From assembly GCF_056746865.1 (NCBI RefSeq), contig NZ_CM163382.1: a stretch of 64,000 bases of DNA. One strand, given 5' to 3'. The position numbers and the translations under genes were made by a program. Within the stretch, counting starts at the first letter, position 1. Every line of letters begins with the position of its first letter. Of this stretch, positions 28,045 to 48,120 are shown piece by piece. Below the pieces are notes generated by a model that searched no databases, had not been told where the DNA came from, and was given only the letters and a program-made list of their open reading frames with translations.

Positions 28045-28233
28045 AGGTATCCTTTACCGGAATGGCAAAAGATACAGATCAACACACCTGTGAAGTTCCA
28101 ATAACATTGATGGAGATCACTGAATAACAAAATGAGTCAAAAGTGATCTCCATCGATGTTATTCAGCGATCTGTTCAAATGTTATCCCCCTGTGTCAGCA
28201 TAGTTGTCGCCTCAATTTTTTAAGGAGATAACA

Positions 28234-28746
28234 ATGCCAGGACAACCAATACCAAGTGAGCTCAAAGAGAAAGGACTGATATGGCTTTTACCACCATACT
28301 GCTGGTCACATCGTCAGATAGCCCGTAAGCTGAAGATCAGTGCCTCAGTTGTATCAAAATGGAGATGTGAGTTAGTGGAGCAAGGACTTTTACCTGAAAA
28401 TGAAAAGATTACCTCCGTTGATGTTGAAGACTGGACACCGGAGCGTCGATTCTCAGTTGTTCTTGAGACGGCTACGCTGTCAGAAATGGAACTTGCTGAT
28501 TATTGCCGACGCACGGGATTGTTTGTTGAACAGGTTAAAGAATGGCGGGCTATCTCAATTCAGGCGCATGAAAAGAAATTGACGGAAAATATCCGAACAG
28601 ACAGGGCATTGCGTGACGCAAAAAATAAGTTACGAGAACTGGAGAAAGAGCTTAAGCGCAAAGATAAAGCTCTGGCGGAAGCAGCTGCCCTGCTTATATT
28701 AAGGGAAAAGTTCAATGCCCTCTGGGACAACAGCGAGGAAGACTGA
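28234..28746 (+). CDS. IS3-family OrfA (copy B)
   Basis: ATG at 28234 preceded by AAGGAG; the track ORF 28204-28746 begins at an upstream TTG. Confidence 0.7.
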   Translation: MPGQPIPSELKEKGLIWLLPPYCWSHRQIARKLKISASVVSKWRCELVEQGLLPENEKITSVDVEDWTPERRFSVVLETATLSEMELADYCRRTGLFVEQVKEWRAISIQAHEKKLTENIRTDRALRDAKNKLRELEKELKRKDKALAEAAALLILREKFNALWDNSEED

Positions 28747-28949
28747 CCCCTCTCCTGGAGCGGCGTAAAATTATTTCTCTTATCCACGAGGCCGTTATCA
28801 ACGGCGCCCGGAAAAGTCAGGCTTGTAGGTGTATCGGTATTTCTGTTCGGACACTTCAGCGCTGGACTAATGGCAAAGTCATCACCACGGACCGAAGATC
28901 CGATACTGTAAACAGATCTCCCCGAAATAAGCTGTCAGAAGCGGAAAGA

Positions 28950-29771
28950 TTGCGGATACTGGAGTTGTGCAACTCTCCAGAGTTTGCATCCTTACCTCCA
29001 AATGTGATCGTACCAACTCTGGCAGACAGGGGTATTTATATTGCTTCTGAATCAAGCTTTTATCGTGTACTGAAATCAGCCAACCAGTTGAAGAAACGAT
29101 CCCGTGAATGTCAGTATAAACGGCCTGATGTACTCAGGGCCGTTGCACCGAATCAAGTCTGGAGTTGGGATATCAGCTATTTGCCGTCCGGGGTCAGAGG
29201 TCAGCATTTTTACCTCTATATGATCGTCGATATTTACAGTCGCAAGATTATTGCTGCAGAGGTATTTGCCAGCGAATCTGGAAAACATGCAGCAGAACTA
29301 CTCCAGCGGGCAATATGGAATGAAAAATGTTCATCCAGCAATCTGGTACTCCATTCTGATAATGGTGCTCCCATGCGCAGTTACACGTTGTTGGCGAAAA
29401 TGTATGCGCTTGGTGTGCTAAGTTCTTATTCCCGGCCAAGAGTCAGCAATGATAATCCTTACTCAGAATCTTTGTTCCGGACTCTCAAATATTGTCCCTG
29501 GTGGCCTGAGAACGGTTTTCGCACTATTAATGATGCCAGAATATGGGTAAACCGTTTTGTAAACTGGTACAACTTTGAACATAAGCACAGCGGGATCAAA
29601 TACGTCACGCCAGCCGAGCGTCATCAAGGTAATGATATGAAAATACTGGCGGCCAGAAAAGCAGTATACCAGCTGGCACGCGAACAGCATCCTGAACGTT
29701 GGGGAAAGCATCTACGTAACTGGGACTACATATCAGAAGTCTACCTGAATCCAGAAAAAGAGGCTGCATAA
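28950..29771 (+). CDS. IS3-family transposase OrfB (copy B)
   Basis: 273 aa, identical to copy A. Confidence 0.75.
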   Translation: MRILELCNSPEFASLPPNVIVPTLADRGIYIASESSFYRVLKSANQLKKRSRECQYKRPDVLRAVAPNQVWSWDISYLPSGVRGQHFYLYMIVDIYSRKIIAAEVFASESGKHAAELLQRAIWNEKCSSSNLVLHSDNGAPMRSYTLLAKMYALGVLSSYSRPRVSNDNPYSESLFRTLKYCPWWPENGFRTINDARIWVNRFVNWYNFEHKHSGIKYVTPAERHQGNDMKILAARKAVYQLAREQHPERWGKHLRNWDYISEVYLNPEKEAA

Positions 29772-29836
29772 CGTAATTTTATTACAAAAGGCGACAACTA
29801 CCTTGAAAAACGCCGTTATTGAGTGATCTCCTTTCA

Positions 29837-34219: not shown

Positions 34220-34723
34220 TTATTGATAGTGTTTTATGTTCAGATAATGCCCGATGACTTTGTCATGCAGCTCCACCGATTTTGAGAACGACAGCGACTT
34301 CCGTCCCAGCCGTGCCAGGTGCTGCCTCAGATTCAGGTTATGCCGCTCAATTCGCTGCGTATATCGCTTGCTGATTACGTGCAGCTTTCCCTTCAGGCGG
34401 GATTCATACAGCGGCCAGCCATCCGTCATCCATATCACCACGTCAAAGGGTGACAGCAGGCTCATAAGACGCCCCAGCGTCGCCATAGTGCGTTCACCGA
34501 ATACGTGCGCAACAACCGTCTTCCGGAGACTGTCATACGCGTAAAACAGCCAGCGCTGGCGCGATTTAGCCCCGACATAGCCCCACTGTTCGTCCATTTC
34601 CTCGCAGACGATGACGTCACTGCCCGGCTGTATGCGCGAGGTTACCGACTGCGGCCTGAGTTTTTTAAGTGACGTAAAATCGTGTTGAGGCCAACGCCCA
34701 TAATGCGTGCACTGGCACGACAT
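34220..34723 (-). CDS. insB: IS1 InsB
   Basis: 167-aa ORF; expressed as an InsAB fusion by frameshifting. Confidence 0.85.
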
Positions 34724-34917
34724 CCGACGCCATTCATGGCCATATCAATGATTTTCTGGTGCGTACCGGGTTGAGAGGCGGTGTAAGTGAACTGTAGTTG
34801 CCATGTTTTACGGCAATGAGAGCAGAGATAGCGCTGATGTCCGGCAGTGCTTTTGCCGTTACGCACCACGCCTTCAGGAGCGGAGCAGGAAGGACATCTG
34901 ATGGAAATGGAAGCCAC
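34642..34917 (-). CDS. insA: IS1 InsA
   Basis: 91 aa [23 protein letters not shown]... Confidence 0.9.
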
Positions 34918-35180: not shown

Positions 35181-35687
35181 GTGAGTCATATGAAGGCAAC
35201 CAATATAGACCCTCAACTGCTTGAAAAAGCCACGAGTATCTTTGCTGAGTTGGGCTTACCTATTGAGCAGGCTATTAACGTCTTTTTAGCTAAATCCGTT
35301 CAAGCCAAAGGTTTTCCGTTTTCTGTTGCTCTTGAAAATGAAGTAGAGACACGGGAAGTTGCACAAACGCAACACAATATCAGCAATGCAGAGATAACCG
35401 AAGCTATCCAAGACTTGGTTGAACATGCTCTACCACTGAGTGAAATAGAAAACCTCACGCAGCTAACCTATTGTCGCAACATTTTTGGGTTGTCATTCCC
35501 CGTGCTCAAACTGGCTAAATCATCACGGCCAGAAGACATTCGCAGTGCAGCCAAAGATGCCAAAGAGCGAAACCGCTACTCCACCACTAAAGTGGCCCAG
35601 CGAGATGAAAAAACCTATGTTATTTGCACCCAATGGACCGACAGACATCGTTCTGCATTTTGCCGTTGGCAAGCCATCTTTAGCTAG
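35181..35687 (+). CDS. DinJ/RelB-like ribbon-helix-helix domain protein with uncharacterised C-terminal extension
   Basis: N-terminal about 45 aa (...IDPQLLEKATSIFAELGLPIEQAINVFLAKSVQAKGFPF) follows the DinJ pattern; remaining 120 aa unrecognised. Track start is GTG; an ATG lies at 35190. Confidence 0.5.
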   Translation: MSHMKATNIDPQLLEKATSIFAELGLPIEQAINVFLAKSVQAKGFPFSVALENEVETREVAQTQHNISNAEITEAIQDLVEHALPLSEIENLTQLTYCRNIFGLSFPVLKLAKSSRPEDIRSAAKDAKERNRYSTTKVAQRDEKTYVICTQWTDRHRSAFCRWQAIFS

Positions 35688-35753: not shown

Positions 35754-37733
35754 ATGAACTTACAAGACAAAGAACAAAGCGCCAAACTCTCCAGTGCTAT
35801 TTGGCGTATGGCAGATGATTTATGGGGTGATTTCAAACACACCGATTTTGCGCGGATTATCCTGCCATTTTTGCTACTGCGTCGTATTGAATGCGTGTTA
35901 GAACCCACCCGTGAGGAAGTTCGTAAGTTCTATCTGGCCGAAAAACAATCCGGCATAGACCTTGGTTTAGTGTTGCCAGAAATTGCGGGATTCGCCTTTT
36001 ACAACACCAGTGAATATAGCCTAGAAACCTTAGGCGCGTCAGACACCGGCGACAACCTAGAACACTACATCAGCCAGTTCAGCAAAAACGTTCGTACCAT
36101 CTTTGATGAGTTTAAATTTGGTCAAACCATAGAAGATCTGGAAAAAGCCAAGTTGCTGTATCGCATGGTAAACCATTTTGCCAACCTCGACTTGCATCCT
36201 GATGTAGTGTCTGACCGCGTATTATCAGATGCTTATGAAGAGCTGATTCTAAAGTTCGCCAGTTCGGTTAATGAAAAGGCCGGGGAATTTATGACCCCGC
36301 GTGATGCCGTGCGTCTTGCCACCAAACTGGTGCTGGCGGCGGATGAAGATATCTTTAGTGAAAAGGGTGTGATCCGCACCATCTATGACCCAACCTGTGG
36401 CACGGGCGGTTTCCTTTCCGATGCCATTAGCCAAATTGAAGAAATGGGCAGCAGCGCTAAAGTCGTGCCTTTTGGTCAAGAGCTCGACCCCGCGACCCAT
36501 GCCATGGCGCTGACCAATATGATGATCCGCGGTTTTGATGCCAATAACATCAAGCAAGGCAACACCTTATCAGACGATCAGTTACGTGCCGACAAGTTTC
36601 ACTACGGCCTTGCCAACCCGCCATTTGGCATTAAGTGGGAAAAAGCCAAGAAAGAAGTAGAACGTGAGCACAAACAGCTCAAATACGCCGGACGCTTTGG
36701 GCCAGGCCTGCCGAGTATTTCTGATGGTTCAATGCTGTTTTTACTGCACTTGGTATCAAAAATGGAAACGCCGGAAAATGGTGGTGGCCGAGTGGGTATA
36801 GTCCTTTCTGGCTCGCCACTGTTTAATGGCGATGCAGGCTCAGGCCCATCAGAAATCCGCCGTTGGCTGCTAGAACAAGACTTAGTCGAAGCGATTGTTG
36901 CCCTGCCAACCGATATGTTCTTCAACACCGGCATTGGCACCTACATCTGGATTTTGACTAACCATAAAGAGCCAAGACGCAAGAATCAGGTGCAACTGAT
37001 TAACTTGGCAGATATTTGGACTCCCATGCGTAAATCGCAAGGCGATAAGCGCAAGTACCTGAGTGATGAACAGATTGACGATATTGTCCGTGCGTACGAT
37101 GGCTTTGAAGCCAGTGACAACTGTAAGATCTTCCAGACTACTGATTTTGCCTACCGTAAAGTCACCATTCAGCGTCCACTGCGTGCCAAACTAGATATTA
37201 CCGCTGCGGGCATTGCTGCATTTGTGCAGCAAGATACGTTTAAAAAACTCAAACCAGAGCAACAAGCGGCATGGGTACAATACCTCACCGATAACCTTGG
37301 CCTTCAGCCTTATGAATGGGCACGTTTGGCGGTTAAGAAGAATAACAATAAGGGTGACTTTGGTAAGTGCTCAAAAGCACTGGCTACGGCCTTAACTGCG
37401 CACTTTGTAAAAATTGATCCGCAATTTGAGCCTGCACTGGATGAAAAAGGCCAAGTGATCGCCGACCCTAAACTCAAAGACACCGAAAGCATTCCTTTTG
37501 ACCGCGACGTTGAAGATTACTTCGCACAAGAGGTGCTGCCACATGTACCGGATGCCTTTATTGATCACTCAGTGCGTGATGAAAAAGACGGCGAAGTGGG
37601 CATTGTCGGTTATGAAATTAACTTTAACCGCTATTTCTACCAATACGTGCCACCACGCGAGTTGAGTGTGATTGATCGTGAGCTAAAAGCATGTGAAGCG
37701 CGCATTCAGGCTCTGCTGAATGAGGTGGCGTAA
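35754..37733 (+). CDS. hsdM: Type I restriction-modification methyltransferase subunit HsdM
   Basis: 659 aa; SAM-binding TCGTGGFL-type motif and catalytic NPPFG. Confidence 0.85.
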   Translation: MNLQDKEQSAKLSSAIWRMADDLWGDFKHTDFARIILPFLLLRRIECVLEPTREEVRKFYLAEKQSGIDLGLVLPEIAGFAFYNTSEYSLETLGASDTGDNLEHYISQFSKNVRTIFDEFKFGQTIEDLEKAKLLYRMVNHFANLDLHPDVVSDRVLSDAYEELILKFASSVNEKAGEFMTPRDAVRLATKLVLAADEDIFSEKGVIRTIYDPTCGTGGFLSDAISQIEEMGSSAKVVPFGQELDPATHAMALTNMMIRGFDANNIKQGNTLSDDQLRADKFHYGLANPPFGIKWEKAKKEVEREHKQLKYAGRFGPGLPSISDGSMLFLLHLVSKMETPENGGGRVGIVLSGSPLFNGDAGSGPSEIRRWLLEQDLVEAIVALPTDMFFNTGIGTYIWILTNHKEPRRKNQVQLINLADIWTPMRKSQGDKRKYLSDEQIDDIVRAYDGFEASDNCKIFQTTDFAYRKVTIQRPLRAKLDITAAGIAAFVQQDTFKKLKPEQQAAWVQYLTDNLGLQPYEWARLAVKKNNNKGDFGKCSKALATALTAHFVKIDPQFEPALDEKGQVIADPKLKDTESIPFDRDVEDYFAQEVLPHVPDAFIDHSVRDEKDGEVGIVGYEINFNRYFYQYVPPRELSVIDRELKACEARIQALLNEVA

Positions 37734-39019
37734 TGAATGCTGGCAACATAGTAGATGCTTTCGTATCTGACTCGAAATGGAACTCAGTACCAGCTAAACG
37801 TTTATTTACGAGTAGCAAAGAAATCAATCAAGGAATGAAAGAATCTAATCGTCTTGCACTAACAATGAAAGGTGTCATAAACCGCTCGTTAGACGATTTA
37901 CAAGGACTTCAATCTTCTGATTACTCTGTTTATCAGATTTTTGAAAAAGATGACTTAGTTTTTAAGCTCATAGATCTTGAAAATATAAAGACTAGCCGAG
38001 TGGGGATTGTGCATGAACGAGGAATAATGAGCCCTGCATACATCCGTGTTTCAGCGAGTTCAAATAGCATCTACCCAAGGTTCTATTACTGGTACTTTTT
38101 TGCTCTATACCTAACCAATATTTATAACAAACTGGGTGGAGGAGTTCGTCAGAACCTAACAGCTGGTGATCTTTTAGAAATACCTGTTCCACTGATTGAT
38201 ATTTCATTACAGAAGCAGGTTAGCACATTCCTTGATCGCGAAACCCAGCGCATCGACAGTCTGATCGAGGAAAAGCAGACCTTTATTAAGCTGCTCAAAG
38301 AAAAACGCCAAGCACTGATCAGCCATGTGGTCACAAAGGGGCTCTATCCCAATGTGGAGATGCAGGACTCTGGCATCGAGTGGATTGGGCAAGTGCCGAA
38401 GCATTGGGAAGTCAAAAAGATAAAGCATATTTGCTCCAACTTTATGTATGGAACCTCTCAAGACTGTAACCAGTCTGATGTTGGCTATCCTGTTCTCAGG
38501 ATACCAAACATCAAGAGTACCAATGTTGATTTTGAAGATCTCAAATATGCAAATATCAGTGATGTTGATGCTTTAACTTATCTTTTATCAAGAGGCGACA
38601 TTTTAGTCATCAGAACTAACGGTAACCCTAATCTGGTCGGCCAAAGCGCGCTTTTTGATTCAAATGGGCAGTATTTATTTGCGTCGTACCTAATAAAGTT
38701 AACACCAAAGCAAGGAGTGGATACTAGCTTCTTAGTGGAAGCGATGAACTCACTATCTGTTCGTCAAGCATTAACATTTCAGTCAAGAACATCGGTAGGT
38801 AACTACAACCTGAGCATTCCTTCACTAGCTAATACAAGTATTGCTATCCCACCAATTGATGAGCAAAAGACAATAACGAATTACTTGAGTGCAGCAACGA
38901 TAAACATTGATTTACTGATTCAAGAGACTGATAAATCGATTGATCTTCTAAAAGAACACCGCACATCGCTGATCAACGCGGCTGTCACAGGAAAAATAGA
39001 CGTCAGGGAGGCGGTGTAA
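37733..39019 (+). CDS. hsdS: Type I R-M specificity subunit HsdS
   Basis: 428 aa with two variable AT-rich target-recognition regions separated by a conserved coiled-coil segment; overlaps hsdM stop and hsdR start. Confidence 0.8.
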   Translation: MNAGNIVDAFVSDSKWNSVPAKRLFTSSKEINQGMKESNRLALTMKGVINRSLDDLQGLQSSDYSVYQIFEKDDLVFKLIDLENIKTSRVGIVHERGIMSPAYIRVSASSNSIYPRFYYWYFFALYLTNIYNKLGGGVRQNLTAGDLLEIPVPLIDISLQKQVSTFLDRETQRIDSLIEEKQTFIKLLKEKRQALISHVVTKGLYPNVEMQDSGIEWIGQVPKHWEVKKIKHICSNFMYGTSQDCNQSDVGYPVLRIPNIKSTNVDFEDLKYANISDVDALTYLLSRGDILVIRTNGNPNLVGQSALFDSNGQYLFASYLIKLTPKQGVDTSFLVEAMNSLSVRQALTFQSRTSVGNYNLSIPSLANTSIAIPPIDEQKTITNYLSAATINIDLLIQETDKSIDLLKEHRTSLINAAVTGKIDVREAV

Positions 39020-42000
39020 TGGCTGCACATCATGAAGTGCATTTTGAACAATATATTACCGAGCAGTTGGTGAACAATGGCTGGAAAGAAGGCCATTCCT
39101 GCCACTATGACCAGCAACGCGCCCTTTACCCGCAAGATGTCATGGATTGGGTAAAGGCCACCCAGCCAGATGCCTGGCACAAACTGAATAAACTGCATGG
39201 TGTGAATGCCGAGCAGGTGCTGTTGGAGCGTTTGGAAAAAGCCCTCTCTTCCCACAAAGCTGGCAGTAAAACAGGTGGCACCATTAATGTGCTGCGTAAA
39301 GGCTTTACCATTGCAGGTTGCGGCACGATTGCCATGGGCCAACGCAAACCCGAAGATGCGCGCAATGAAGAGCGTATAGCCCGTTATGAGCACAACATTT
39401 TGCGCGTGGTGCGCCAACTGAAATATTGCCCGACTCGCGAGTGGGAAATTGACTTGGTGTTCTTTATCAACGGTCTACCCGTTGCCACCGCCGAGCTAAA
39501 AACCGATTTTACCCAGTCGCTAGAATCGGCGATTGCGCAGTACAAAGAGGATCGTCTGCCCGTTGACCCAAAAACCAAGCGTAAAGAGCCGCTGTTAACC
39601 TTTAAACGCGGTGCAGTGGTACATTTTGCCATGTCTGATACAGAAATCGCCATGGCGACCAAACTGGCGGGAGAAAATACCTATTTTCTGCCCTTCAATA
39701 AAGGCCATGATGGTTCTACCTCTGATTTGCCCGTACACATCAACTTGCCGGGTGAAGATGGAGAGTATCCGGTCAGCTATTTTTGGCAAGAAATTGCCCA
39801 AAAAGATAATTGGCTACGCATTTTCTACAGCTTTGTGTATGTCGAAACCAAAGAGGTTGCCGATAGCAATGGCAAGGTTGAGCGTAAGGAAACACAGATT
39901 TTTCCGCGTTATCATCAGTTAGCCGCAGTCAACAAGATGATTGATGATGCCCGCCAGAACGGCGCAGGCATGCAGTATCTTTGTGAGCACAGCGCCGGTT
40001 CGGGAAAAACCTCTACCATAGCCTGGACGGCCCATGATTTGATTCGTTTACGCAGCACCGATGGTAAAGCGGTCTTTAAATCAGTGATCATTGTGACCGA
40101 CCGCACCGTGCTGGATTCGCAGTTGCAAGATGCGGTGCAACAGCTGGATCATCAATATGGGGTGATTAAGGTGATTGATCGCGAAAAGAGCAGCGAGTCG
40201 AAATCAAAACAGCTGACTGAAGCGCTATTGACTGGCACGCCGATCATTGTAGTGACGATTCAAACCTTCCCATATGCGTTAGAAGCGATTCTGACCAATC
40301 AATCTTTGGCACAAAGTAACTTTGCGGTGATCATCGATGAAGCACACACCTCGCAAACAGGCTCTACAGCCAAAGGGTTACGCGCAGCGCTTACTCTAAA
40401 CCTTAGCCCTCAAGAGTTGGAGCAAATGAGCATTGAGGACATTCTTACTAAGGTGCAAGAAGCGCGCGCCATGCCCAAGAACGTTTCGCACTTTGCTTTT
40501 ACGGCAACACCCAAGCACAGCACCAAGATGTTGTTTGGCCGCCCGAAAGACCCTAACCAACCAGTGTCAGATGACAATCTTCCTGAATCGTTCCACCTCT
40601 ACACCCAACGTCAGGCCATTGATGAGGGTTTTATTCTTGATGTGCTGGAGAATTACACCCACTACGATACAGCCTACAAAATTGGTGAGAACAATCTGGA
40701 TGAGAAGCGCGTAGACAGCAAACAAGCTCGCCGCGCGTTGGCGCGCTGGATGTCACTGCACCCAACCACGGTCAGCCAAAAAGTCGAATTTATTATTAAG
40801 CACTTCAAGGCCAATATCGCTCACCTACTGGAAGGTGAAGCCAAAGCCATGGTGGTCACATCGGGCAGGCCACAGGCGGTGAAATACAAGCTTGCTTTTG
40901 ATAAATACATTAAAAAGCATGGTATTGAAGGTATCCAAGCCTTGGTTGCCTTCTCGGGCAAAGTCCCCGGCAAAGATTTGGGTGATGAAGACAGCCAAGA
41001 CCCGCTAGAAATTGATTTCGATAAAGAGTACACCGAGTACAACTTAAACCCAGACACGCACGGGGCTGACCTGCGCCATGAGTTTGAGAAAACCGAATAT
41101 CGCGTCATGTTAGTCGCCAACAAGTTCCAAACGGGCTTTAATCAACCAAAACTGGTTGCCATGTATTTGGATAAGAAAATATCCGATGTAGAAGCGGTGC
41201 AAACGCTGTCTCGCCTAAACCGCACCTATCCAGGCAAAGACACAACCTTCGTGATTGATTTTGTTAACGATCCACAAACCATTCTCAATGCGTTCAAAAA
41301 GTACGACAAAGGCGCGCAGCTTAATGAAGTGCAAGATGTGAACGTCATCTATGACATCAAAGATATTTTGGATGAACAGAACATATACAACCATCAAGAT
41401 TTAGAGTTGTTTAAGCAAGCGCGTGGTAAATCGATTCTCGGCCAATCACCTGACAAAAAGTCACACGCGCACAAGAAACTGCTAGCTGCCACACAACGCC
41501 CTACCGATGTGTTCAACGTTAAGCTCAAAGAGCTGGTTGATGCTGCAAACCATTGGGATCAGCAATACAACAAAGCGCACCTTGCGGGTGATGAAAAAGC
41601 GGCGAACTACGCAGAATCTCAGCGCAGTGATTTCACCAAGCAGCGCGAAGCACTAATGCGTTTTAAGTCAGATTTAGCTCGATTTGTGAAGCACTATAGC
41701 TATATGAACCGCCCCGGGTTTCCTGGAGAGTGTTTTATCTGTGAACTCAGGCTGCCAGATCATCGTTTCCGATGGAAGCATAATAAGCTTTTTCTGCTTC
41801 TGCCGGAGGAGTATGGCCCAGCCTTCCCAGCAATCGTCGATTGTTATACCAGTCCACCCACGTTAGTGTGGCCAGTTCCACTTCTGCACGGTTTTTCCAG
41901 CTCTTACGGTGTATTACCTCCGCTTTGTAAAGACCATTGATGCTCTCAGCCATCGCGTTGTCATACGAGTCGCCTGTACTCCCTGTTGATGCCAGTAATC

Positions 42001-43568
42001 CGGCTTCTTTTAGTCGCTCCGTATAGGCCAGTGACACATACTGAGAGCCTTTATCGCTGTGATGGATGGTGCCAGACGGACGACGGGCCCACAACGCCTG
42101 CTCCAGCGCATCCAGCACGAATGTCGTTTCCATAGACGATGAGACCCGCCACCCCACGATGTATCCGGCAAACACATCAATGATAAACGCCACATAGACG
42201 AAGCCCTGCCATGTGCTGACGTAAGTAAAATCAGCCACCCACAGCTGGTCAGGTCGTTCTGCCACGAACTGACGGTTTACGCGGTCGCCTGCGGCAACGG
42301 CTTTCCGGCTGATGGTCGTACGGACCTTTTTACCCCGGAGAACACCGGCAAGTCCCATAACCGCCATGAGACGTGCCACTGTACATCTGGCCACCCTGAT
42401 TCCTTCCCGTAACAACTGACGCCAGACTTTACGCACACCGTACACCTGATGATTTTCATCGTATACGCGCTGTATCTCTCTCTTCAGCCAGTCGTCGTGC
42501 TGCGCACGGGCACTGCGTTTATCCGGATGATGTCGCTGTTGCTGACAATGGTAATACGTTGACGGGGCAATATGCAGTTCGCTGCATACCGGTCCGACCC
42601 CGTACTGCTCACGCAGCTTATCCAGCAGTGGCATCATTTTTTCCAGAGGCGGTCGAACTCCGCCTTCGCAAAATAAGCGGAAGCCTGGCGAAGGATATCG
42701 TTACTGCGGCGCAGTTCACGATTTTCACGTTCCAGCTCTTTCAGACGCTGACGTTCAGCGCTGGTGAGCCCACCATCACCGCCCCCGGTATCCCGCTCAT
42801 GCTGGCGAACCCAGACACGCAGAGTCTCCGGCGTACAGCCAATCTTTGGGGCAATGGAACAAATTGCCGCCCACTGTGAGTCATATTCATCCTGACTTTC
42901 CAGAACCATACGAATCGCCCGCTGACGGACTTCGGGGGAAAAACGAGTATTTTTAGTCATCCTGTTTACCTCTTTCTCAGGGAGTTTAGTCTCCAGGATT
43001 TCCGGGGCGGTTCAATATGGCGCAATTGATTGAGTTTGGTGATCCTGAACTGGAAAACTTTGCCGCGTTTGCTCATTTGCTATCACGTCGATTGAAAGGG
43101 GTAACACCAGAAAACATCGATCTCAGTGCACTGGTACTAGAAAAATTCAAAATCAAATACGACAAAGAGCCGCTTCCAGAAGCGTTTAATCAGGTACTTG
43201 AACCTATCCGCCCCAACTATAACGACCCTGCGGATCGTGAACAGGCATTTCTTGCCGATATCATTCGCCGCCTAAACGAACTGTTTGGCGATGTCGGCGA
43301 CGAACCCGGTCGCCGAAACTTTGCCAACGGTACTATTACGCGTGTCACCCAAAATCCAATTGTGGTTGAGCAGATAGAAAAGCACGACAAGTCGATTGCC
43401 CTCAAAGGCGACTTGCCGCAAGCGGTGAAGCAAGCCGTTGTGCAGGCTCTGCTGAAAGAAGGTGATATAGCCCGAACGCTACTCAAAGACCCACAAGTTA
43501 TGGCAAGTTATGTTGAGTTGATTTTTGACATGATGAAGCAAGGTGCAGAACAGGCGGCGGTGAAATAA
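39019..43568 (+). pseudogene. hsdR: Type I restriction enzyme R subunit HsdR, split by IS629 (insert 41705-43014)
   Basis: Helicase motifs (SAGSGKTS, DEAH-box-like IIDEAH); the frame is continuous across the insertion once IS629 and one ATA duplication are removed. Confidence 0.8.
41705..43014 (-). mobile_element. IS629, copy 1 (1310 bp), 3-bp target duplication ATA
   Basis: Ends TGAACCGCCCCGGGTTTCC... and ...GGTTCA; OrfA 42634-42960 and OrfB 41747-42637 match IS629 from memory. Confidence 0.9.
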
Positions 43569-44122
43569 TGAATACTGCGTTTCGGGTTTTACTTACGTTC
43601 AATGCAACATCACTACTAGTGATTATCTTTGCGGTACAAAAAGGGTACTCACTCGGATATTTCTTTGGTGGTTTCGCTTGCTTCGATTGGATAGCAGCAC
43701 TTCCGAACGCAGTATCATATTTACTCTATTTTCTTATCCCTGTTTTATCGACTGGATTGAGTATTTGGCTGAGTAAGTATTTGGGTAAAGACGATTTTAA
43801 GGCGGGTGAAGTAGCGAGTATTGAGCATGCCAATAACAGCTTCCTACCAAGTTATTTGGGTTACTTTTTCGTGGCGTTGAGCATTGGTAACTGGGAGACA
43901 TTGTGGTTTGTTTATGGCGTTTTGTTTGTTTTTACTCTCTTATCGCAAGCACTCTACTTTAACCCATTGTTTTTACTGTTTGGTTATGAGTTTTATAACA
44001 TTACAACCAAAAACGGAACGGCCATTTTCCTTATTAGCCGAGAGCGCTACAAGAAGCCAGATGACATCGAAATATCATTGGCTTATCGAATCAATAATTA
44101 CACATTTATCGAGCGAGGATAA
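43568..44122 (+). CDS. Hypothetical integral membrane protein (about 4 TM), first gene of candidate defence cassette
   Basis: 184 aa; hydrophobic segments near residues 5-23, 29-66 and 92-150; start overlaps hsdR stop (TAATG); AT-rich. Confidence 0.6.
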   Translation: MNTAFRVLLTFNATSLLVIIFAVQKGYSLGYFFGGFACFDWIAALPNAVSYLLYFLIPVLSTGLSIWLSKYLGKDDFKAGEVASIEHANNSFLPSYLGYFFVALSIGNWETLWFVYGVLFVFTLLSQALYFNPLFLLFGYEFYNITTKNGTAIFLISRERYKKPDDIEISLAYRINNYTFIERG

Positions 44123-44964
44123 TGATGGACCATGTACTGGCACATATAAAAACTAGAGCAAAAAAACGCATTTTCAAATTGGTTTCTGATCAATCTCTTT
44201 TTGATACCGTCACAATCGACTTAAATGCCTGTATTCCATACAATCCAGACCATAACCTTGACGAAGACTCATGGTTTAAAATTGAAGACTTTAGTCAAAA
44301 AGAGTTTTGTATTGAACTGCTAAAAAAAGACTATGATTCAAAAGACTACGATGACTTAACCAAAGATAACTTCGCCAAGATCGCCTACTTATTTGCAATT
44401 CAAGGTAATGATTTTTACTTTCAAAAAATCACTCCAAGCCTATTCGTAAAACGCAAAACGCTTGTTTTTGGTGAAGCCGCAGAAATTGAGAAGAGCCAAA
44501 CACGTTTAGTAATAAACGCCTTACCTGATGCAGTGTACTTCAAAGTGGCCGATACCTTGATATTCAAAAATCTGGCAACGATCTCGAGCATTTTTAAAGG
44601 TATCGATGAGTTGTACAAGGAAGCAACAAAAGAAGAAGTTGAGCAGTTTTTAGATGCACAGTTTATAGAGTTGGGTAATGACTACAACGTAGATAGCGTC
44701 TCAAAACCTAATAGAAAACGTATTGGCCTTGCTATGGCAACACTTGATGCGATGTCTGCTGACGATAAAGCTAACATGCTTGATTATATCGACGGTTACT
44801 GCGGTGAACAGAAGCTGAAATTCGATAAAGAAAATCAGAAGTTTGAAATATCTAATGACGATGAGTTGAAGTTACTGCTTTATGGCATTGAACAACGCTT
44901 CTATACGACCCCGTTTGGCAAAGAAAAAAGGCTCGCTAACTCTGTAACCGCTATGGATAAATAA
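44122..44964 (+). CDS. Hypothetical soluble acidic protein, second gene of candidate defence cassette
   Basis: 280 aa, no recognised catalytic motif; start overlaps upstream stop (TAATG); AT-rich. Confidence 0.6.
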   Translation: MMDHVLAHIKTRAKKRIFKLVSDQSLFDTVTIDLNACIPYNPDHNLDEDSWFKIEDFSQKEFCIELLKKDYDSKDYDDLTKDNFAKIAYLFAIQGNDFYFQKITPSLFVKRKTLVFGEAAEIEKSQTRLVINALPDAVYFKVADTLIFKNLATISSIFKGIDELYKEATKEEVEQFLDAQFIELGNDYNVDSVSKPNRKRIGLAMATLDAMSADDKANMLDYIDGYCGEQKLKFDKENQKFEISNDDELKLLLYGIEQRFYTTPFGKEKRLANSVTAMDK

Positions 44965-44984: not shown

Positions 44985-47347
44985 ATGAAGGTTGATTCAA
45001 TGGCCGATAACATCCCACAAGCTCCTCAAGGTGAGTTTGTTCTTTTCACCAGTGCTGATGGTCAAACCCGCGTTGAGTGTCGTTTTGAGTCTGACACCTT
45101 GTGGCTTTCTCAGGCTGCAATGGCAGAGCTTTATCAAGTTAGCTCTCAAGCAATCACCCAACACGTAAAAGCTGTCTATTCTGAAGAAGAGCTTGAGCAA
45201 ATTTCAACTTGTAAGGATTACTTACAAGTTCAACTGGAAGGTGGCAGAGAAGTAAAGCGAAGCATTCGTCACTACAGTCTTCCGGTTATTCTTGCAGTAG
45301 GATACCGAGTTCGCTCAACACGTGGCACCCAGTTCCGCCAATGGGCAACCAGAATGTTGCAAGTGAACCGCCCCGGGTTTCCTGGAGAGTGTTTTATCTG
45401 TGAACTCAGGCTGCCAGATCATCGTTTCCGATGGAAGCATAATAAGCTTTTTCTGCTTCTGCCGGAGGAGTATGGCCCAGCCTTCCCAGCAATCGTCGAT
45501 TGTTATACCAGTCCACCCACGTTAGTGTGGCCAGTTCCACTTCTGCACGGTTTTTCCAGCTCTTACGGTGTATTACCTCCGCTTTGTAAAGACCATTGAT
45601 GCTCTCAGCCATCGCGTTGTCATACGAGTCGCCTGTACTCCCTGTTGATGCCAGTAATCCGGCTTCTTTTAGTCGCTCCGTATAGGCCAGTGACACATAC
45701 TGAGAGCCTTTATCGCTGTGATGGATGGTGCCAGACGGACGACGGGCCCACAACGCCTGCTCCAGCGCATCCAGCACGAATGTCGTTTCCATAGACGATG
45801 AGACCCGCCACCCCACGATGTATCCGGCAAACACATCAATGATAAACGCCACATAGACGAAGCCCTGCCATGTGCTGACGTAAGTAAAATCAGCCACCCA
45901 CAGCTGGTCAGGTCGTTCTGCCACGAACTGACGGTTTACGCGGTCGCCTGCGGCAACGGCTTTCCGGCTGATGGTCGTACGGACCTTTTTACCCCGGAGA
46001 ACACCGGCAAGTCCCATAACCGCCATGAGACGTGCCACTGTACATCTGGCCACCCTGATTCCTTCCCGTAACAACTGACGCCAGACTTTACGCACACCGT
46101 ACACCTGATGATTTTCATCGTATACGCGCTGTATCTCTCTCTTCAGCCAGTCGTCGTGCTGCGCACGGGCACTGCGTTTATCCGGATGATGTCGCTGTTG
46201 CTGACAATGGTAATACGTTGACGGGGCAATATGCAGTTCGCTGCATACCGGTCCGACCCCGTACTGCTCACGCAGCTTATCCAGCAGTGGCATCATTTTT
46301 TCCAGAGGCGGTCGAACTCCGCCTTCGCAAAATAAGCGGAAGCCTGGCGAAGGATATCGTTACTGCGGCGCAGTTCACGATTTTCACGTTCCAGCTCTTT
46401 CAGACGCTGACGTTCAGCGCTGGTGAGCCCACCATCACCGCCCCCGGTATCCCGCTCATGCTGGCGAACCCAGACACGCAGAGTCTCCGGCGTACAGCCA
46501 ATCTTTGGGGCAATGGAACAAATTGCCGCCCACTGTGAGTCATATTCATCCTGACTTTCCAGAACCATACGAATCGCCCGCTGACGGACTTCGGGGGAAA
46601 AACGAGTATTTTTAGTCATCCTGTTTACCTCTTTCTCAGGGAGTTTAGTCTCCAGGATTTCCGGGGCGGTTCAAAGAATACCTAATCAAAGGATTCGTCA
46701 TGGATGACGAGCGCCTGAAAAATCCGCCCATTGGCCATTCTGCTGTGCCAGATTACTTTGATGAAATGCTGGAACGCATTCGTGATATCCGAGCTAGTGA
46801 GCGTCGCGTTTATCTGCGAGTCAAAGAAATCTTTACCATGGCTGCTGATTACGAGCCATCTAACCAAGAGACCAACCGCTTCTTCCAAACCATTCAGAAT
46901 AAGCTGCATTATGCTTGTACGCATATGACGGCTGCTGAGCTTATCGCCAGCCGTGTGGATGCCAGTAAGCCGGATATGGGCTTAACCAGCTATAAAGGCG
47001 ATGAAGTGCGCAAGACAGACGTTACTGTTGCCAAGAACTATTTGCGTGAAGACGAAATCAAAGAGCTTAATCGCATCGTCAATATGTGGCTCGACTTTGC
47101 TGAAGACCAAGCACTGCGTCGCAAGCAGGTATTTTTACAGGACTGGGCCGATAAGCTTGACCAGTTCTTGAGTTTTAACGATAGAGATGTATTAAACGGT
47201 GCAGGAAAAATCTCCAAGAAAGACGCTGATGACAAAGCGAAATTGGAGTTTGACCGCTTTGCCCAGCAGCGCCGTCGTTTAAAAGAAGCCGAAGGCGCAC
47301 GGGCCAATATCGCAGCCCTCAAGGCCATACTAAAAAAAGATAAATAG
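44985..47347 (+). pseudogene. rhuM: RhuM-family protein, split by IS629 (insert 45364-46673)
   Basis: N-terminal part ...YSLPVILAVGYRVRSTRGTQFRQWATRMLQ; frame continues after the IS once one AAG duplication is removed. Confidence 0.65.
45364..46673 (-). mobile_element. IS629, copy 2 (1310 bp), 3-bp target duplication AAG
   Basis: ORF products identical to copy 1; same orientation. Confidence 0.9.
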
Positions 47348-47404: not shown

Positions 47405-48120
47405 CTATAAAGGATTATCCATCTTAAAATCGTCGATATCGCCTGTCATTTTGAATAGATTGGTGTCATTCCAACGGCACAGTTGTCTAACCCGCATTAG
47501 ATTTGAGTTGGCTCTGCGGATTATTGAGAAAGCATCTTCAACAGCAGTAATCACCGATTTTTCCCAATCTTGTGCTCGGGTAAAGGTGCTTTGTGAATAG
47601 CGATAATTGCCCTCACGGGGGAGGTAATGGCTGATCACCTGGTATTTGTCAGAATTCTTTTTAGGTTTAAACTCGTTGTAAACCCAGAAAATTTCGAGTT
47701 TTTTGTTTCTTTGCCTTACACGACAACCAAAATGACCTGGGTAGCCTTCAGAGTTTTTACCTCTATGTGCAACGTTGTTCAGCCAGAACAAGTCTGCAAT
47801 TTTTTGTGCTATGTAGAAGTAGCGGAGCTGTTCTATTTCGGTTGATTTATGGGTGTAGTGTAGATATTGCTCTGATATGGTTAAGGAAAAAGCATTGCGT
47901 CGTCTTGATTAACATTTGTGCTATTGACAATAAAGGTTTCCCAAATATTAATTTGTGTTTCTAGTCCTTTAAATGATTTTGAGAAGGCTTCTATGTACTC
48001 AGATTGCGGTTGATTTCCCCCATTTAGTGCTGCACCAAATGTAGCTATCTGTTGTTCTAAAAATGAATGATTTTTGGTCATTACATAATCCTCTGTGTGG
48101 TTGATACTGCGTATTTTCAT
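47405..48120 (-). pseudogene. Hypothetical protein, apparently frameshifted
   Basis: Two consecutive minus-strand ORFs (47881-48120 and 47405-47791) with a short gap; no family recognised. Confidence 0.3.

What the first reader, a model, noticed from the sequence alone, without database searches (positions are those of the whole stretch)
43568..44964. Uncharacterised two-gene cassette (4-TM protein plus 280-aa soluble protein) translationally coupled to hsdMSR: candidate anti-phage module
Both ORFs are intact, AT-rich relative to neighbours, and joined to the type I R-M operon by TAATG overlaps (hsdR stop/orf1 start at 43566-43570, orf1 stop/orf2 start at 44120-44124), so they were built to be co-expressed with restriction. 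The small 4-TM protein followed by a roughly 300-aa soluble partner is the architecture of Kiwa (KwaA/KwaB), but I cannot verify a DUF4868 domain by eye, so it may equally be an undescribed system. It sits between a type I R-M system and rhuM, a typical defence-island context.
Basis: partly seen in the sequence, partly recalled or inferred. Interest (0 to 1): 0.8.

Follow-up and report, generated by a model that had tools for sequence, protein, structure and literature searches.

The report
Kiwa anti-phage system behind restriction operon
The two genes are an intact copy of Kiwa, a known bacterial anti-phage system already listed in a published catalogue, attached to the end of a restriction-enzyme operon that an insertion sequence has broken in this genome.

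Summary
Two intact ORFs, 43568-44122 (184 aa) and 44122-44964 (280 aa), are joined to each other and to the hsdR reading frame by TAATG overlaps and are AT-rich (37-42% GC).

They are KwaA and KwaB of the Kiwa defence system. PADLOC KwaA and KwaB profiles match both over their full length (E 9e-16 and 7e-14). The pair is 68% and 57% identical to the experimentally validated E. coli ECOR8 Kiwa operon. A confident KwaB model (pLDDT 93) matches only solved KwaB structures. The exact proteins (WP_001090220.1, WP_000968685.1) are already listed as Kiwa in the supplement of the Kiwa mechanism paper. Pfam's KwaB/DUF4868 model misses this clade, and RefSeq mostly calls both proteins hypothetical, so the pair looked uncharacterised.

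In this window, two identical IS1203/IS629-like insertions split hsdR and rhuM. The native coupling to hsdMSR is therefore interrupted, and expression here is uncertain.

One observation may go beyond the catalogue. Among 70 evaluable species-level loci of this Kiwa clade, 40% have kwaA overlapping or within 20 nt of the last gene of a type I R-M operon, and 60% are linked to a same-strand type I operon, in at least three operon layouts.

Verdict: already known, ordinary, with low to moderate interest.

The parts
43568..44122 (+). kwaA: 184-aa inner-membrane protein with four TM helices and a C-terminal beta domain
   Evidence: ORF. PADLOC KwaA PDLC00216, E 9.3e-16, residues 2-182. 68% identical to ECOR8-type KwaA. 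Homologues carry PF28043 KwaA. Hydropathy and AF2 helices. The top five Foldseek hits are KwaA chains, but weak.
44122..44964 (+). kwaB: 280-aa soluble protein with the KwaB/DUF4868 fold, the presumed DNA-binding effector
   Evidence: ORF. PADLOC KwaB PDLC00222, E 7.1e-14, residues 33-276. 57% identical to ECOR8-type KwaB. AF2 pLDDT 93. The only significant Foldseek hits are solved KwaB 9mtn/9mrx/9nyu, probability 1.0, TM about 0.65.
35754..39019 (+). hsdM (35754-37733) and hsdS (37733-39019) of the type I R-M operon that natively carries kwaAB at its 3' end
   Evidence: ORFs. RefSeq annotation of the identical SMS-3-5 locus.
39019..41704 (+). hsdR 5' part (about 895 codons), truncated by an IS insertion
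   Evidence: Alignment to the intact SMS-3-5 hsdR; junction sequence.
41705..43014 (-). IS1203/IS629-like IS3-family element (1,310 bp) inserted in hsdR, 3-bp target duplication ATA
   Evidence: named IS1203 family in SMS-3-5 and strain 98232 annotation.
43015..43568 (+). hsdR 3' remnant (183-codon ORF from 43017) whose stop overlaps the kwaA start
44985..45363 (+). rhuM 5' part, truncated by the second IS copy (45364-46673, TSD AAG); the rest of rhuM resumes at 46674
   Evidence: RhuM annotation in SMS-3-5.

Best explanation
The cassette is a Kiwa anti-phage and anti-plasmid defence system (kwaA then kwaB) of the clade that includes the experimentally validated E. coli ECOR8 operon. It is carried as the 3' passenger of a type I R-M operon on a mobilizable tRNA-associated island. 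By homology, KwaA forms tetramers in the inner membrane, with four TM helices and a cytoplasmic beta domain that docks KwaB. KwaB dimers bind to it to make a membrane supercomplex. Phage attachment or DNA ejection, or conjugation, perturbs the membrane. This releases or activates KwaB, which binds the incoming DNA through its KwaB/DUF4868 fold without cutting it, and blocks replication and late transcription. DNA mimics such as lambda Gam can inhibit KwaB. Shown here: gene anatomy, family membership by profile, close homology to a tested operon, the KwaB fold, conserved pairing, and recurrent fusion to type I R-M operons. Inferred from the literature on homologues and not tested for this allele: complex formation, the trigger, DNA binding and the phage spectrum. 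In this window the genes are intact, but a 1.3-kb IS in hsdR separates them from the hsd promoter, so their expression is uncertain and type I restriction (though not methylation) is probably lost.
For: PADLOC KwaA and KwaB profiles match both proteins full length at E 9e-16 and 7e-14, slightly better than the validated ECOR8-type proteins score on the same models. ECOR8 cloning primers delimit the E. coli 042 operon L007 5465-6858, to which the window proteins are 68% and 57% identical end to end. The exact accessions WP_001090220.1 and WP_000968685.1 are in the paper's table of PADLOC-called Kiwa operons, including SMS-3-5. The KwaB model has pLDDT 93; its only significant PDB matches are KwaB structures, and the next hit has E 0.6. 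KwaA homologues carry PF28043, and the predicted topology is 4 TM plus a beta domain. A KwaA gene lies directly upstream of KwaB in 79 of 80 species loci. The mechanism for homologues is from bioRxiv 10.1101/2023.02.26.530102: in ECOR8 both genes and the KwaA TM helices are essential, and ECOR8 KwaB was the protein used in the DNA-binding assays.
Against: Pfam-A finds no KwaB/DUF4868 (PF16162) or KwaA hit in the window proteins, and only 3 of 74 clade members hit PF16162. The NCBIfam KwaA equivalog scores 25 bits against a cut-off of 100. There is no sequence-level match to the solved O55:H7 Kiwa, even with a clade profile. The KwaA fold match is weak (E 0.056, TM 0.34). This allele has not been tested experimentally, and I found no paper text naming it. 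No sigma-70-like promoter was found between the IS and kwaA.
Confidence: 0.93

Rival explanations
1. The pair is Kiwa, but it is not just a neighbour of the restriction system. This clade is a functional companion of type I R-M, for example a back-up or decoy that acts when DNA-mimic anti-restriction proteins disable HsdMSR, comparable to PrrC with EcoprrI or to the Kiwa/RecBCD inhibitor partitioning.
For: Of 70 evaluable loci from different species, 28 have a type I gene overlapping or ending within 20 nt of kwaA, 35 within 160 nt, and 42 are linked to a same-strand type I operon. These use three layouts (R-M-S::kwaAB, M-S-R::kwaAB, M-(S)-kwaAB-R) and include Hsd proteins only 24-38% identical to each other, in taxa as distant as Bacteroidota. 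KwaB is inhibited by the DNA mimic Gam. Embedded partners of type I systems are an established theme (TgvAB).
Against: 24 of 70 loci have no adjacent type I system. The validated ECOR8 operon stands alone in E. coli 042 and protects on its own. Other copies follow a DUF2357/PDDEXK_7 restriction gene or DarTG instead. Co-transfer and shared transcription within defence islands would explain the linkage without any functional dependence. The 80 loci were chosen by similarity, so they are not independent samples.
Confidence: 0.15
2. In this particular genome the cassette is a silent relic. The IS insertion in hsdR is polar, kwaAB is no longer transcribed, and the locus is decaying, as are the flanking hsdR and rhuM.
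For: A 1,310-bp IS, oriented opposite to the operon, sits 553 bp upstream of kwaA. No sigma-70-like promoter on the + strand lies between the IS and kwaA, and a terminator-like hairpin sits at the IS end, 41714-41726. Natively there is no intergenic region for an own promoter. Two identical direct IS copies flank the pair and could delete it by recombination.
Against: Both ORFs are 100% identical to the intact SMS-3-5 allele, so there has been no decay yet. IS3-family elements can supply outward or read-through transcription (general knowledge, not tested). The consensus promoter scan is insensitive.
Confidence: 0.35
3. The pair is an undescribed two-gene system that only resembles Kiwa in architecture, or a membrane/ATP-synthase-related function as the public name 'ATP F0F1 synthase synthase' suggests.
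For: No Pfam hit for either protein. No BLASTP similarity to the canonical SMS-3-5 KwaA or KwaB. The public name is in NCBI and UniRef.
Against: PADLOC profile hits, 57-68% identity to a validated Kiwa, the KwaB fold with probability 1.0, and listing as Kiwa. No ATP-synthase family or structure was matched.
Confidence: 0.02

Closest known systems
Kiwa operon of E. coli ECOR8 (same sequence termini as E. coli 042 WP_000586175.1 / WP_000370895.1), tested in bioRxiv 10.1101/2023.02.26.530102
   Same: Same two-gene order and sizes (186 and 276 aa against 184 and 280 aa). 68% and 57% identity over the full length. Same best PADLOC models. Same conserved C-terminal KwaA motif NNYTFIER.
   Different: The ECOR8-type operon stands alone with its own upstream region, next to T6SS remnants and ibrAB in E. 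coli 042. The window allele has no intergenic region and overlaps the stop codon of hsdR. The window allele belongs to a sub-lineage that is 82-100% conserved across Vibrio, Shewanella, Aeromonas and Proteus islands. The phage spectrum of this allele is untested.
Kiwa of E. coli O55:H7 RM12579 (founding member; solved structures 9mrg, 9mrr, 9mrx, 9mtn, 9nyu)
   Same: Same KwaB fold (Foldseek probability 1.0, TM about 0.65). Same KwaA plan of four TM helices plus a C-terminal beta domain. The same PADLOC KwaA models (PDLC00216, PDLC00221) also catch a canonical KwaA, the SMS-3-5 protein that matches the solved KwaA chains at E 2.4e-40.
   Different: About 11-17% identity in the structural alignments. 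No match by BLASTP, phmmer or a clade HMM. Below the NCBIfam KwaA equivalog cut-off. KwaB is about 35 residues shorter (280 against 315 aa).
Defence genes embedded in type I R-M operons (TgvAB in V. cholerae VPI-2; PrrC in EcoprrI)
   Same: A second, mechanistically unrelated defence module sits inside or at the end of an hsd operon and shares its transcription (PrrC from general knowledge).
   Different: No sequence or fold relationship to TgvAB or PrrC. No evidence that Kiwa activity depends on, or is masked by, the R-M complex.

Membership tests
Kiwa (KwaA/KwaB) | Two adjacent, co-oriented genes, kwaA then kwaB | tested here: met
   1-nt TAATG overlap in the window. A KwaA ORF lies directly upstream of KwaB in 79 of 80 species loci.
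Kiwa (KwaA/KwaB) | KwaA: small (about 170-200 aa) membrane protein with four TM helices and a C-terminal beta domain that matches KwaA profiles | tested here: met
   PADLOC KwaA PDLC00216 E 9.3e-16 and PDLC00221 E 2.5e-14, full length. Close homologues carry PF28043 KwaA. Helices 2-25, 47-69, 93-104, 109-130 and beta strands 141-182 in the AF2 model, pLDDT 71. Hydropathy.
Kiwa (KwaA/KwaB) | KwaA fold equals the solved KwaA structure | tested here: inconclusive
   The top five Foldseek PDB hits are all KwaA chains, but the best has E 0.056, probability 0.77 and TM 0.34. The model is a monomer of moderate confidence.
Kiwa (KwaA/KwaB) | KwaB carries the KwaB/DUF4868 domain (fold level and defence-specific profiles) | tested here: met
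   PADLOC KwaB PDLC00222 E 7.1e-14 over residues 33-276. AF2 pLDDT 93. Foldseek: 9mtn_A E 9.4e-07, probability 1.00, TM 0.65/0.61, full length; no other fold with E below 0.6.
Kiwa (KwaA/KwaB) | Direct hit to Pfam PF16162 (KwaB, formerly DUF4868) | tested here: inconclusive
   No hit for the window protein. Only 3 of 74 clade members reach E<=0.001 and 5 reach E<=0.1. The clade lies at the edge of the Pfam model's reach, and the validated ECOR8-type KwaB belongs to the same clade.
Kiwa (KwaA/KwaB) | Clear homology to an experimentally validated Kiwa operon | tested here: met
   68% (KwaA, E 9e-91) and 57% (KwaB, E 3e-117) identity to the ECOR8-type operon identified through the published primers.
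Kiwa (KwaA/KwaB) | Already catalogued as Kiwa by the field's reference tool | tested here: met
   WP_001090220.1 with WP_000968685.1 or WP_000350135.1 is listed among PADLOC-called complete Kiwa operons in the supplement of 10.1101/2023.02.26.530102. One RefSeq record names orf1 'KwaA family protein'.
Kiwa (KwaA/KwaB) | Both genes together protect against phages or conjugation; KwaA-KwaB membrane supercomplex; KwaB binds DNA | not testable with these tools
   Shown for the ECOR8, ECOR12, ECOR49, D9, Ralstonia and O55:H7 homologues, not for this allele.
Canonical (O55:H7-type) KwaA equivalog, NCBIfam NF041622 | Score at or above the curated cut-off of 100 bits | tested here: not met
   25.4 bits. 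The protein is a KwaA-family member but not an equivalog of the canonical cluster.
Type I R-M-dependent embedded defence (PrrC-EcoprrI type) | Gene(s) located within, or translationally coupled to, an hsd operon | tested here: met
   TAATG overlap with hsdR. Found in 28 of 70 loci within 20 nt, including four embedded cases.
Type I R-M-dependent embedded defence (PrrC-EcoprrI type) | Activity controlled by, or dependent on, the R-M complex or its inhibitors | not testable with these tools
   No data here. ECOR8 Kiwa works without an R-M partner, which argues against strict dependence.

The most novel reading that the evidence does not exclude
The ECOR8-like Kiwa clade may be a dedicated partner of type I restriction-modification rather than a chance neighbour. 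It has been fused repeatedly to hsd operons of different layouts. KwaB, a DNA-binding protein already known to be targeted by the DNA mimic Gam, might back up or guard type I R-M when phages or plasmids deploy DNA-mimic anti-restriction proteins such as Ocr or ArdA.
Probability: 0.15. Interest if true: 0.6.

Novelty: already known. Interest (0 to 1): 0.25.

Why it matters
For annotating this genome, the result turns two 'hypothetical proteins', which elsewhere carry the spurious public name 'ATP F0F1 synthase synthase', into a named defence system. It also shows that the adjacent restriction enzyme is probably inactivated by an IS.

More generally, it documents a blind spot. Pfam PF16162 and the NCBIfam KwaA equivalog both miss this whole Kiwa clade, even though the clade includes a validated operon and is widespread on mobilizable islands of Vibrio, Shewanella, Aeromonas, Proteus and E. 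coli.

The only element with research value is the recurrent operonic fusion of this clade to type I R-M systems. I did not find it described in the papers available here. It suggests a simple experiment on layered or cooperative defence.

Tried and rejected
1. Pfam-A on both proteins gave nothing significant. The explanation is model sensitivity: 3 of 74 clade members hit PF16162.

2. phmmer and a clade HMM against PDB sequences gave no Kiwa hit. Only fold comparison links the clade to the solved structures.

3. BLASTP against the canonical KwaA and KwaB of SMS-3-5 showed no similarity.

4. I tried to map the paper's KwaB DNA-binding mutant residues (R142, R167, K187, R233, N134, D169) onto the ECOR8-type and window proteins. 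The numbering does not fit ECOR8 KwaB, so the attempt was dropped.

5. I looked for the ECOR12, ECOR49 and D9 primer sites in the window and in SMS-3-5 and found none. I could not determine whether ECOR12 is a closer tested relative, or which of the paper's three clusters this pair belongs to.

6. The first search for related loci attempt, with the 74-sequence alignment, failed because no stretch was conserved enough. It worked with a 12-sequence alignment.

7. Strain 98232 (H1) is not the source of the window, because its hsdR is intact. The hsdR::IS junction is absent from all complete E. coli genomes, so the source remains unidentified.

8. The promoter scan between the IS and kwaA found nothing convincing. 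It is a weak test and does not show that the genes are silent.
Full report
**Observation.** orf1 is 43568-44122 (184 aa) and orf2 is 44122-44964 (280 aa), both on the + strand. The stop of the upstream frame and the start of orf1 share TAATG at 43566-43570, and orf1 and orf2 share TAATG at 44120-44124. The pair is AT-rich, at 37-42% GC, against 47-51% for hsdM/hsdR and about 55% for the flanking IS copies.

One correction matters. In this window hsdR is not intact. Alignment with the uninterrupted locus of E. coli SMS-3-5 shows a 1,310-bp IS3-family element (annotated IS1203 family, IS629-like) at 41705-43014. It has a 3-bp target duplication ATA and splits hsdR at about codon 895 of 1078. An identical copy at 45364-46673, with duplication AAG, splits rhuM. 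The frame that overlaps orf1 is therefore only a 183-codon hsdR remnant. The 2.35-kb segment between the IS copies, including both ORFs, is 100% identical to SMS-3-5.

**Identity.** PADLOC-DB profiles match orf1 to KwaA (PDLC00216, E 9.3e-16, residues 2-182 of 184). They match orf2 to KwaB (PDLC00222, E 7.1e-14, residues 33-276 of 280). General-purpose libraries largely miss this. Pfam-A gives no significant hit for either protein, and the NCBIfam KwaA equivalog scores 25 bits against a cut-off of 100. RefSeq calls both 'hypothetical protein' in nearly all of the 76 complete E. coli genomes that carry the cassette; one record says 'KwaA family protein'. Public databases also give orf2 the meaningless name 'ATP F0F1 synthase synthase'.

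The Kiwa mechanism paper (Zhang, Todeschini et al., bioRxiv 10.1101/2023.02.26.530102) defines the family by PADLOC calls. Its supplementary table of complete Kiwa operons lists exactly these proteins: WP_001090220.1 with WP_000968685.1, or with the alternative-start record WP_000350135.1. The table includes the entry for SMS-3-5.

**Closest tested relative.** The paper's cloning primers for the ECOR8 Kiwa operon allowed me to rebuild the kwaA/kwaB junction and find the operon in E. coli 042. Both outer primers match it exactly and delimit L007 5465-6858. The window proteins are 68% (KwaA, E 9e-91) and 57% (KwaB, E 3e-117) identical to that operon over their full length. The ECOR8-type proteins hit the same PADLOC models with slightly lower scores than the window proteins.

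In ECOR8, both genes and the KwaA transmembrane helices are required for defence against T3 and T4, and ECOR8 KwaB was the protein used in the paper's DNA-binding assays. Primers of the other tested operons (ECOR12, ECOR49, D9) do not match the window or SMS-3-5. I found no paper text naming this allele.

**Structure.** A 74-sequence alignment of the clade gave a confident KwaB model (pLDDT 93.1, pTM 0.77). Against the PDB, its only significant matches are solved KwaB structures. 9mtn_A scores E 9.4e-07, probability 1.00 and TM 0.65/0.61 over about 318 aligned columns at 12% identity; 9mrx and 9nyu also match. The next fold has E 0.6.

Sequence methods cannot make this link. phmmer, a clade HMM and BLASTP against canonical KwaA and KwaB all fail. 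Only 3 of 74 clade members hit Pfam PF16162, 'KwaB', at E <= 0.001. The clade is thus a very divergent but genuine branch of the family.

The KwaA model is of moderate confidence (pLDDT 70.7). It shows helices at 2-25, 47-69, 93-104 and 109-130 and a C-terminal beta domain at 141-182, in agreement with the hydropathy profile. This matches the published description of four TM helices plus a C-terminal beta-barrel that contacts KwaB. Its five best PDB matches are all KwaA chains, but weak (best E 0.056, TM 0.34), so I count the fold test for KwaA as inconclusive. Close KwaA homologues carry the newer Pfam family PF28043, KwaA.

**Mechanism.** The following is inferred by homology and was not tested for this allele. 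KwaA tetramers in the inner membrane dock KwaB dimers into a supercomplex. Membrane perturbation at sites of phage attachment, DNA ejection or conjugation activates the complex. KwaB then binds the incoming DNA without cleaving it and blocks replication and late transcription. The DNA mimic Gam inhibits KwaB.

What I have shown is membership, fold, pairing and context. What remains inferred is complex formation, the trigger, DNA binding and the spectrum of phages blocked.

**Context and the R-M link.** The pair travels as a unit on mobilizable islands.
- In E. coli it lies in the block hsdM-hsdS-hsdR-kwaA-kwaB-rhuM-mobI, at tRNA-Leu in SMS-3-5 and in a tRNA-Phe island in strain 98232.
- In Shewanella, Aeromonas and Proteus it overlaps hsdS of an R-M-S-ordered type I operon by 4 nt, in yicC or dusA islands. 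DarTG or a Fic gene follows downstream.
- In V. cholerae and Alteromonas it follows a DUF2357/PDDEXK_7 restriction gene.

A scan of one genome per species returned 80 loci at 42-96% KwaB identity. A KwaA gene sits directly upstream in 79 of them; the exception is at a contig end. Seventy loci have at least 1.5 kb of upstream sequence. Among these:
- 28 (40%) have a type I gene ending no more than 20 nt before kwaA or overlapping it. The last gene is hsdS in 20 and hsdR in 8.
- 35 (50%) have a type I gene ending within 160 nt.
- 42 (60%) are linked to a same-strand type I operon.
- 4 are embedded between hsdM/S and hsdR.
- 24 have no adjacent type I system.

The Hsd proteins of the different layouts are only 24-38% identical to each other, and the layouts occur from Vibrio to Bacteroidota, so the linkage probably arose more than once. 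There are caveats. The loci were selected by similarity and are not phylogenetically independent. Hsd genes were detected by BLASTP with a few queries only. No control set of other defence systems was scored.

Defence genes embedded in type I operons are an established theme (TgvAB; PrrC from general knowledge). Neither the Kiwa paper nor the defence-synergy paper from the same laboratory mentions this linkage, and my literature searches found no description of it.

**State of this copy.** The IS in hsdR probably abolishes restriction while leaving the methyltransferase genes intact. This is an inference from the known requirement for HsdR in cleavage. It also separates kwaAB from the hsd promoter by 1.3 kb of oppositely oriented IS. 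A consensus scan finds no sigma-70-like promoter between the IS and kwaA, and finds a terminator-like hairpin at the IS end, but this test is weak. The hsdR::IS junction occurs in none of 5,426 complete E. coli genomes. The two identical, directly oriented IS copies flanking kwaAB could delete the pair by recombination. I give about one chance in three that the cassette is transcriptionally silent in this genome.

**Verdict.** It is a Kiwa operon of the ECOR8-like clade. Its apparent novelty came from gaps in Pfam, NCBIfam and RefSeq annotation. The recurrent fusion of this clade to type I R-M operons is a modest, possibly undescribed, contextual observation that suggests a simple cooperation experiment. 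Interest is 0.25.

Noticed in passing
window 41705-43014, 45364-46673, 50679-51987: Three 1,310-bp IS1203/IS629-like copies, all with the transposase on the - strand. The first two are 100% identical, have their own 3-bp target duplications (ATA, AAG) and split hsdR and rhuM. The third is shared with SMS-3-5. The first two flank kwaAB as direct repeats and could delete or mobilise it.
   Followed up: yes
L001 (E. coli SMS-3-5) 22241-25174: The same tRNA-Leu island in SMS-3-5 carries a second, canonical Kiwa: a RefSeq-named kwaA plus a kwaB split by an ISVsa5 insertion. One island thus holds two very divergent Kiwa systems. The second one is absent from the window.
   Followed up: partly
window 44122-44964 and homologues P0001-P0120: The KwaB-like protein family is widely named 'ATP F0F1 synthase synthase' in NCBI and UniRef records. 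The name has no support from any profile or fold search here and appears to be a propagated annotation error.
   Followed up: partly
L016-L095 (80 species loci): This Kiwa clade is very often fused to, or embedded in, type I R-M operons: 28 of 70 loci within 20 nt and 42 of 70 linked on the same strand. Three operon layouts are used, including hsdM-(hsdS)-kwaAB-hsdR. I found no description of this in the searchable literature.
   Followed up: partly
window 35181-35687: A 168-aa ORF immediately upstream of hsdM is annotated in the identical SMS-3-5 locus as a RelB/DinJ-family antitoxin, with no obvious toxin partner next to it. An IS1 lies just upstream, at about 34220-34917.
   Followed up: no
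window 47405-47878 (- strand): A mobI(A/C) gene lies next to rhuM. MobI is the mobilisation factor of islands moved by IncA/C plasmids or SXT/R391 elements. This fits the near-identical kwaAB copies found in yicC and dusA islands of Vibrio, Shewanella, Aeromonas and Proteus.
   Followed up: partly
window 24032-25661 and 28186-29815: Two inverted copies of another IS3-family element (about 96-98% identical to one in SMS-3-5) flank a segment of about 2.5 kb. I did not examine the content.
   Followed up: no
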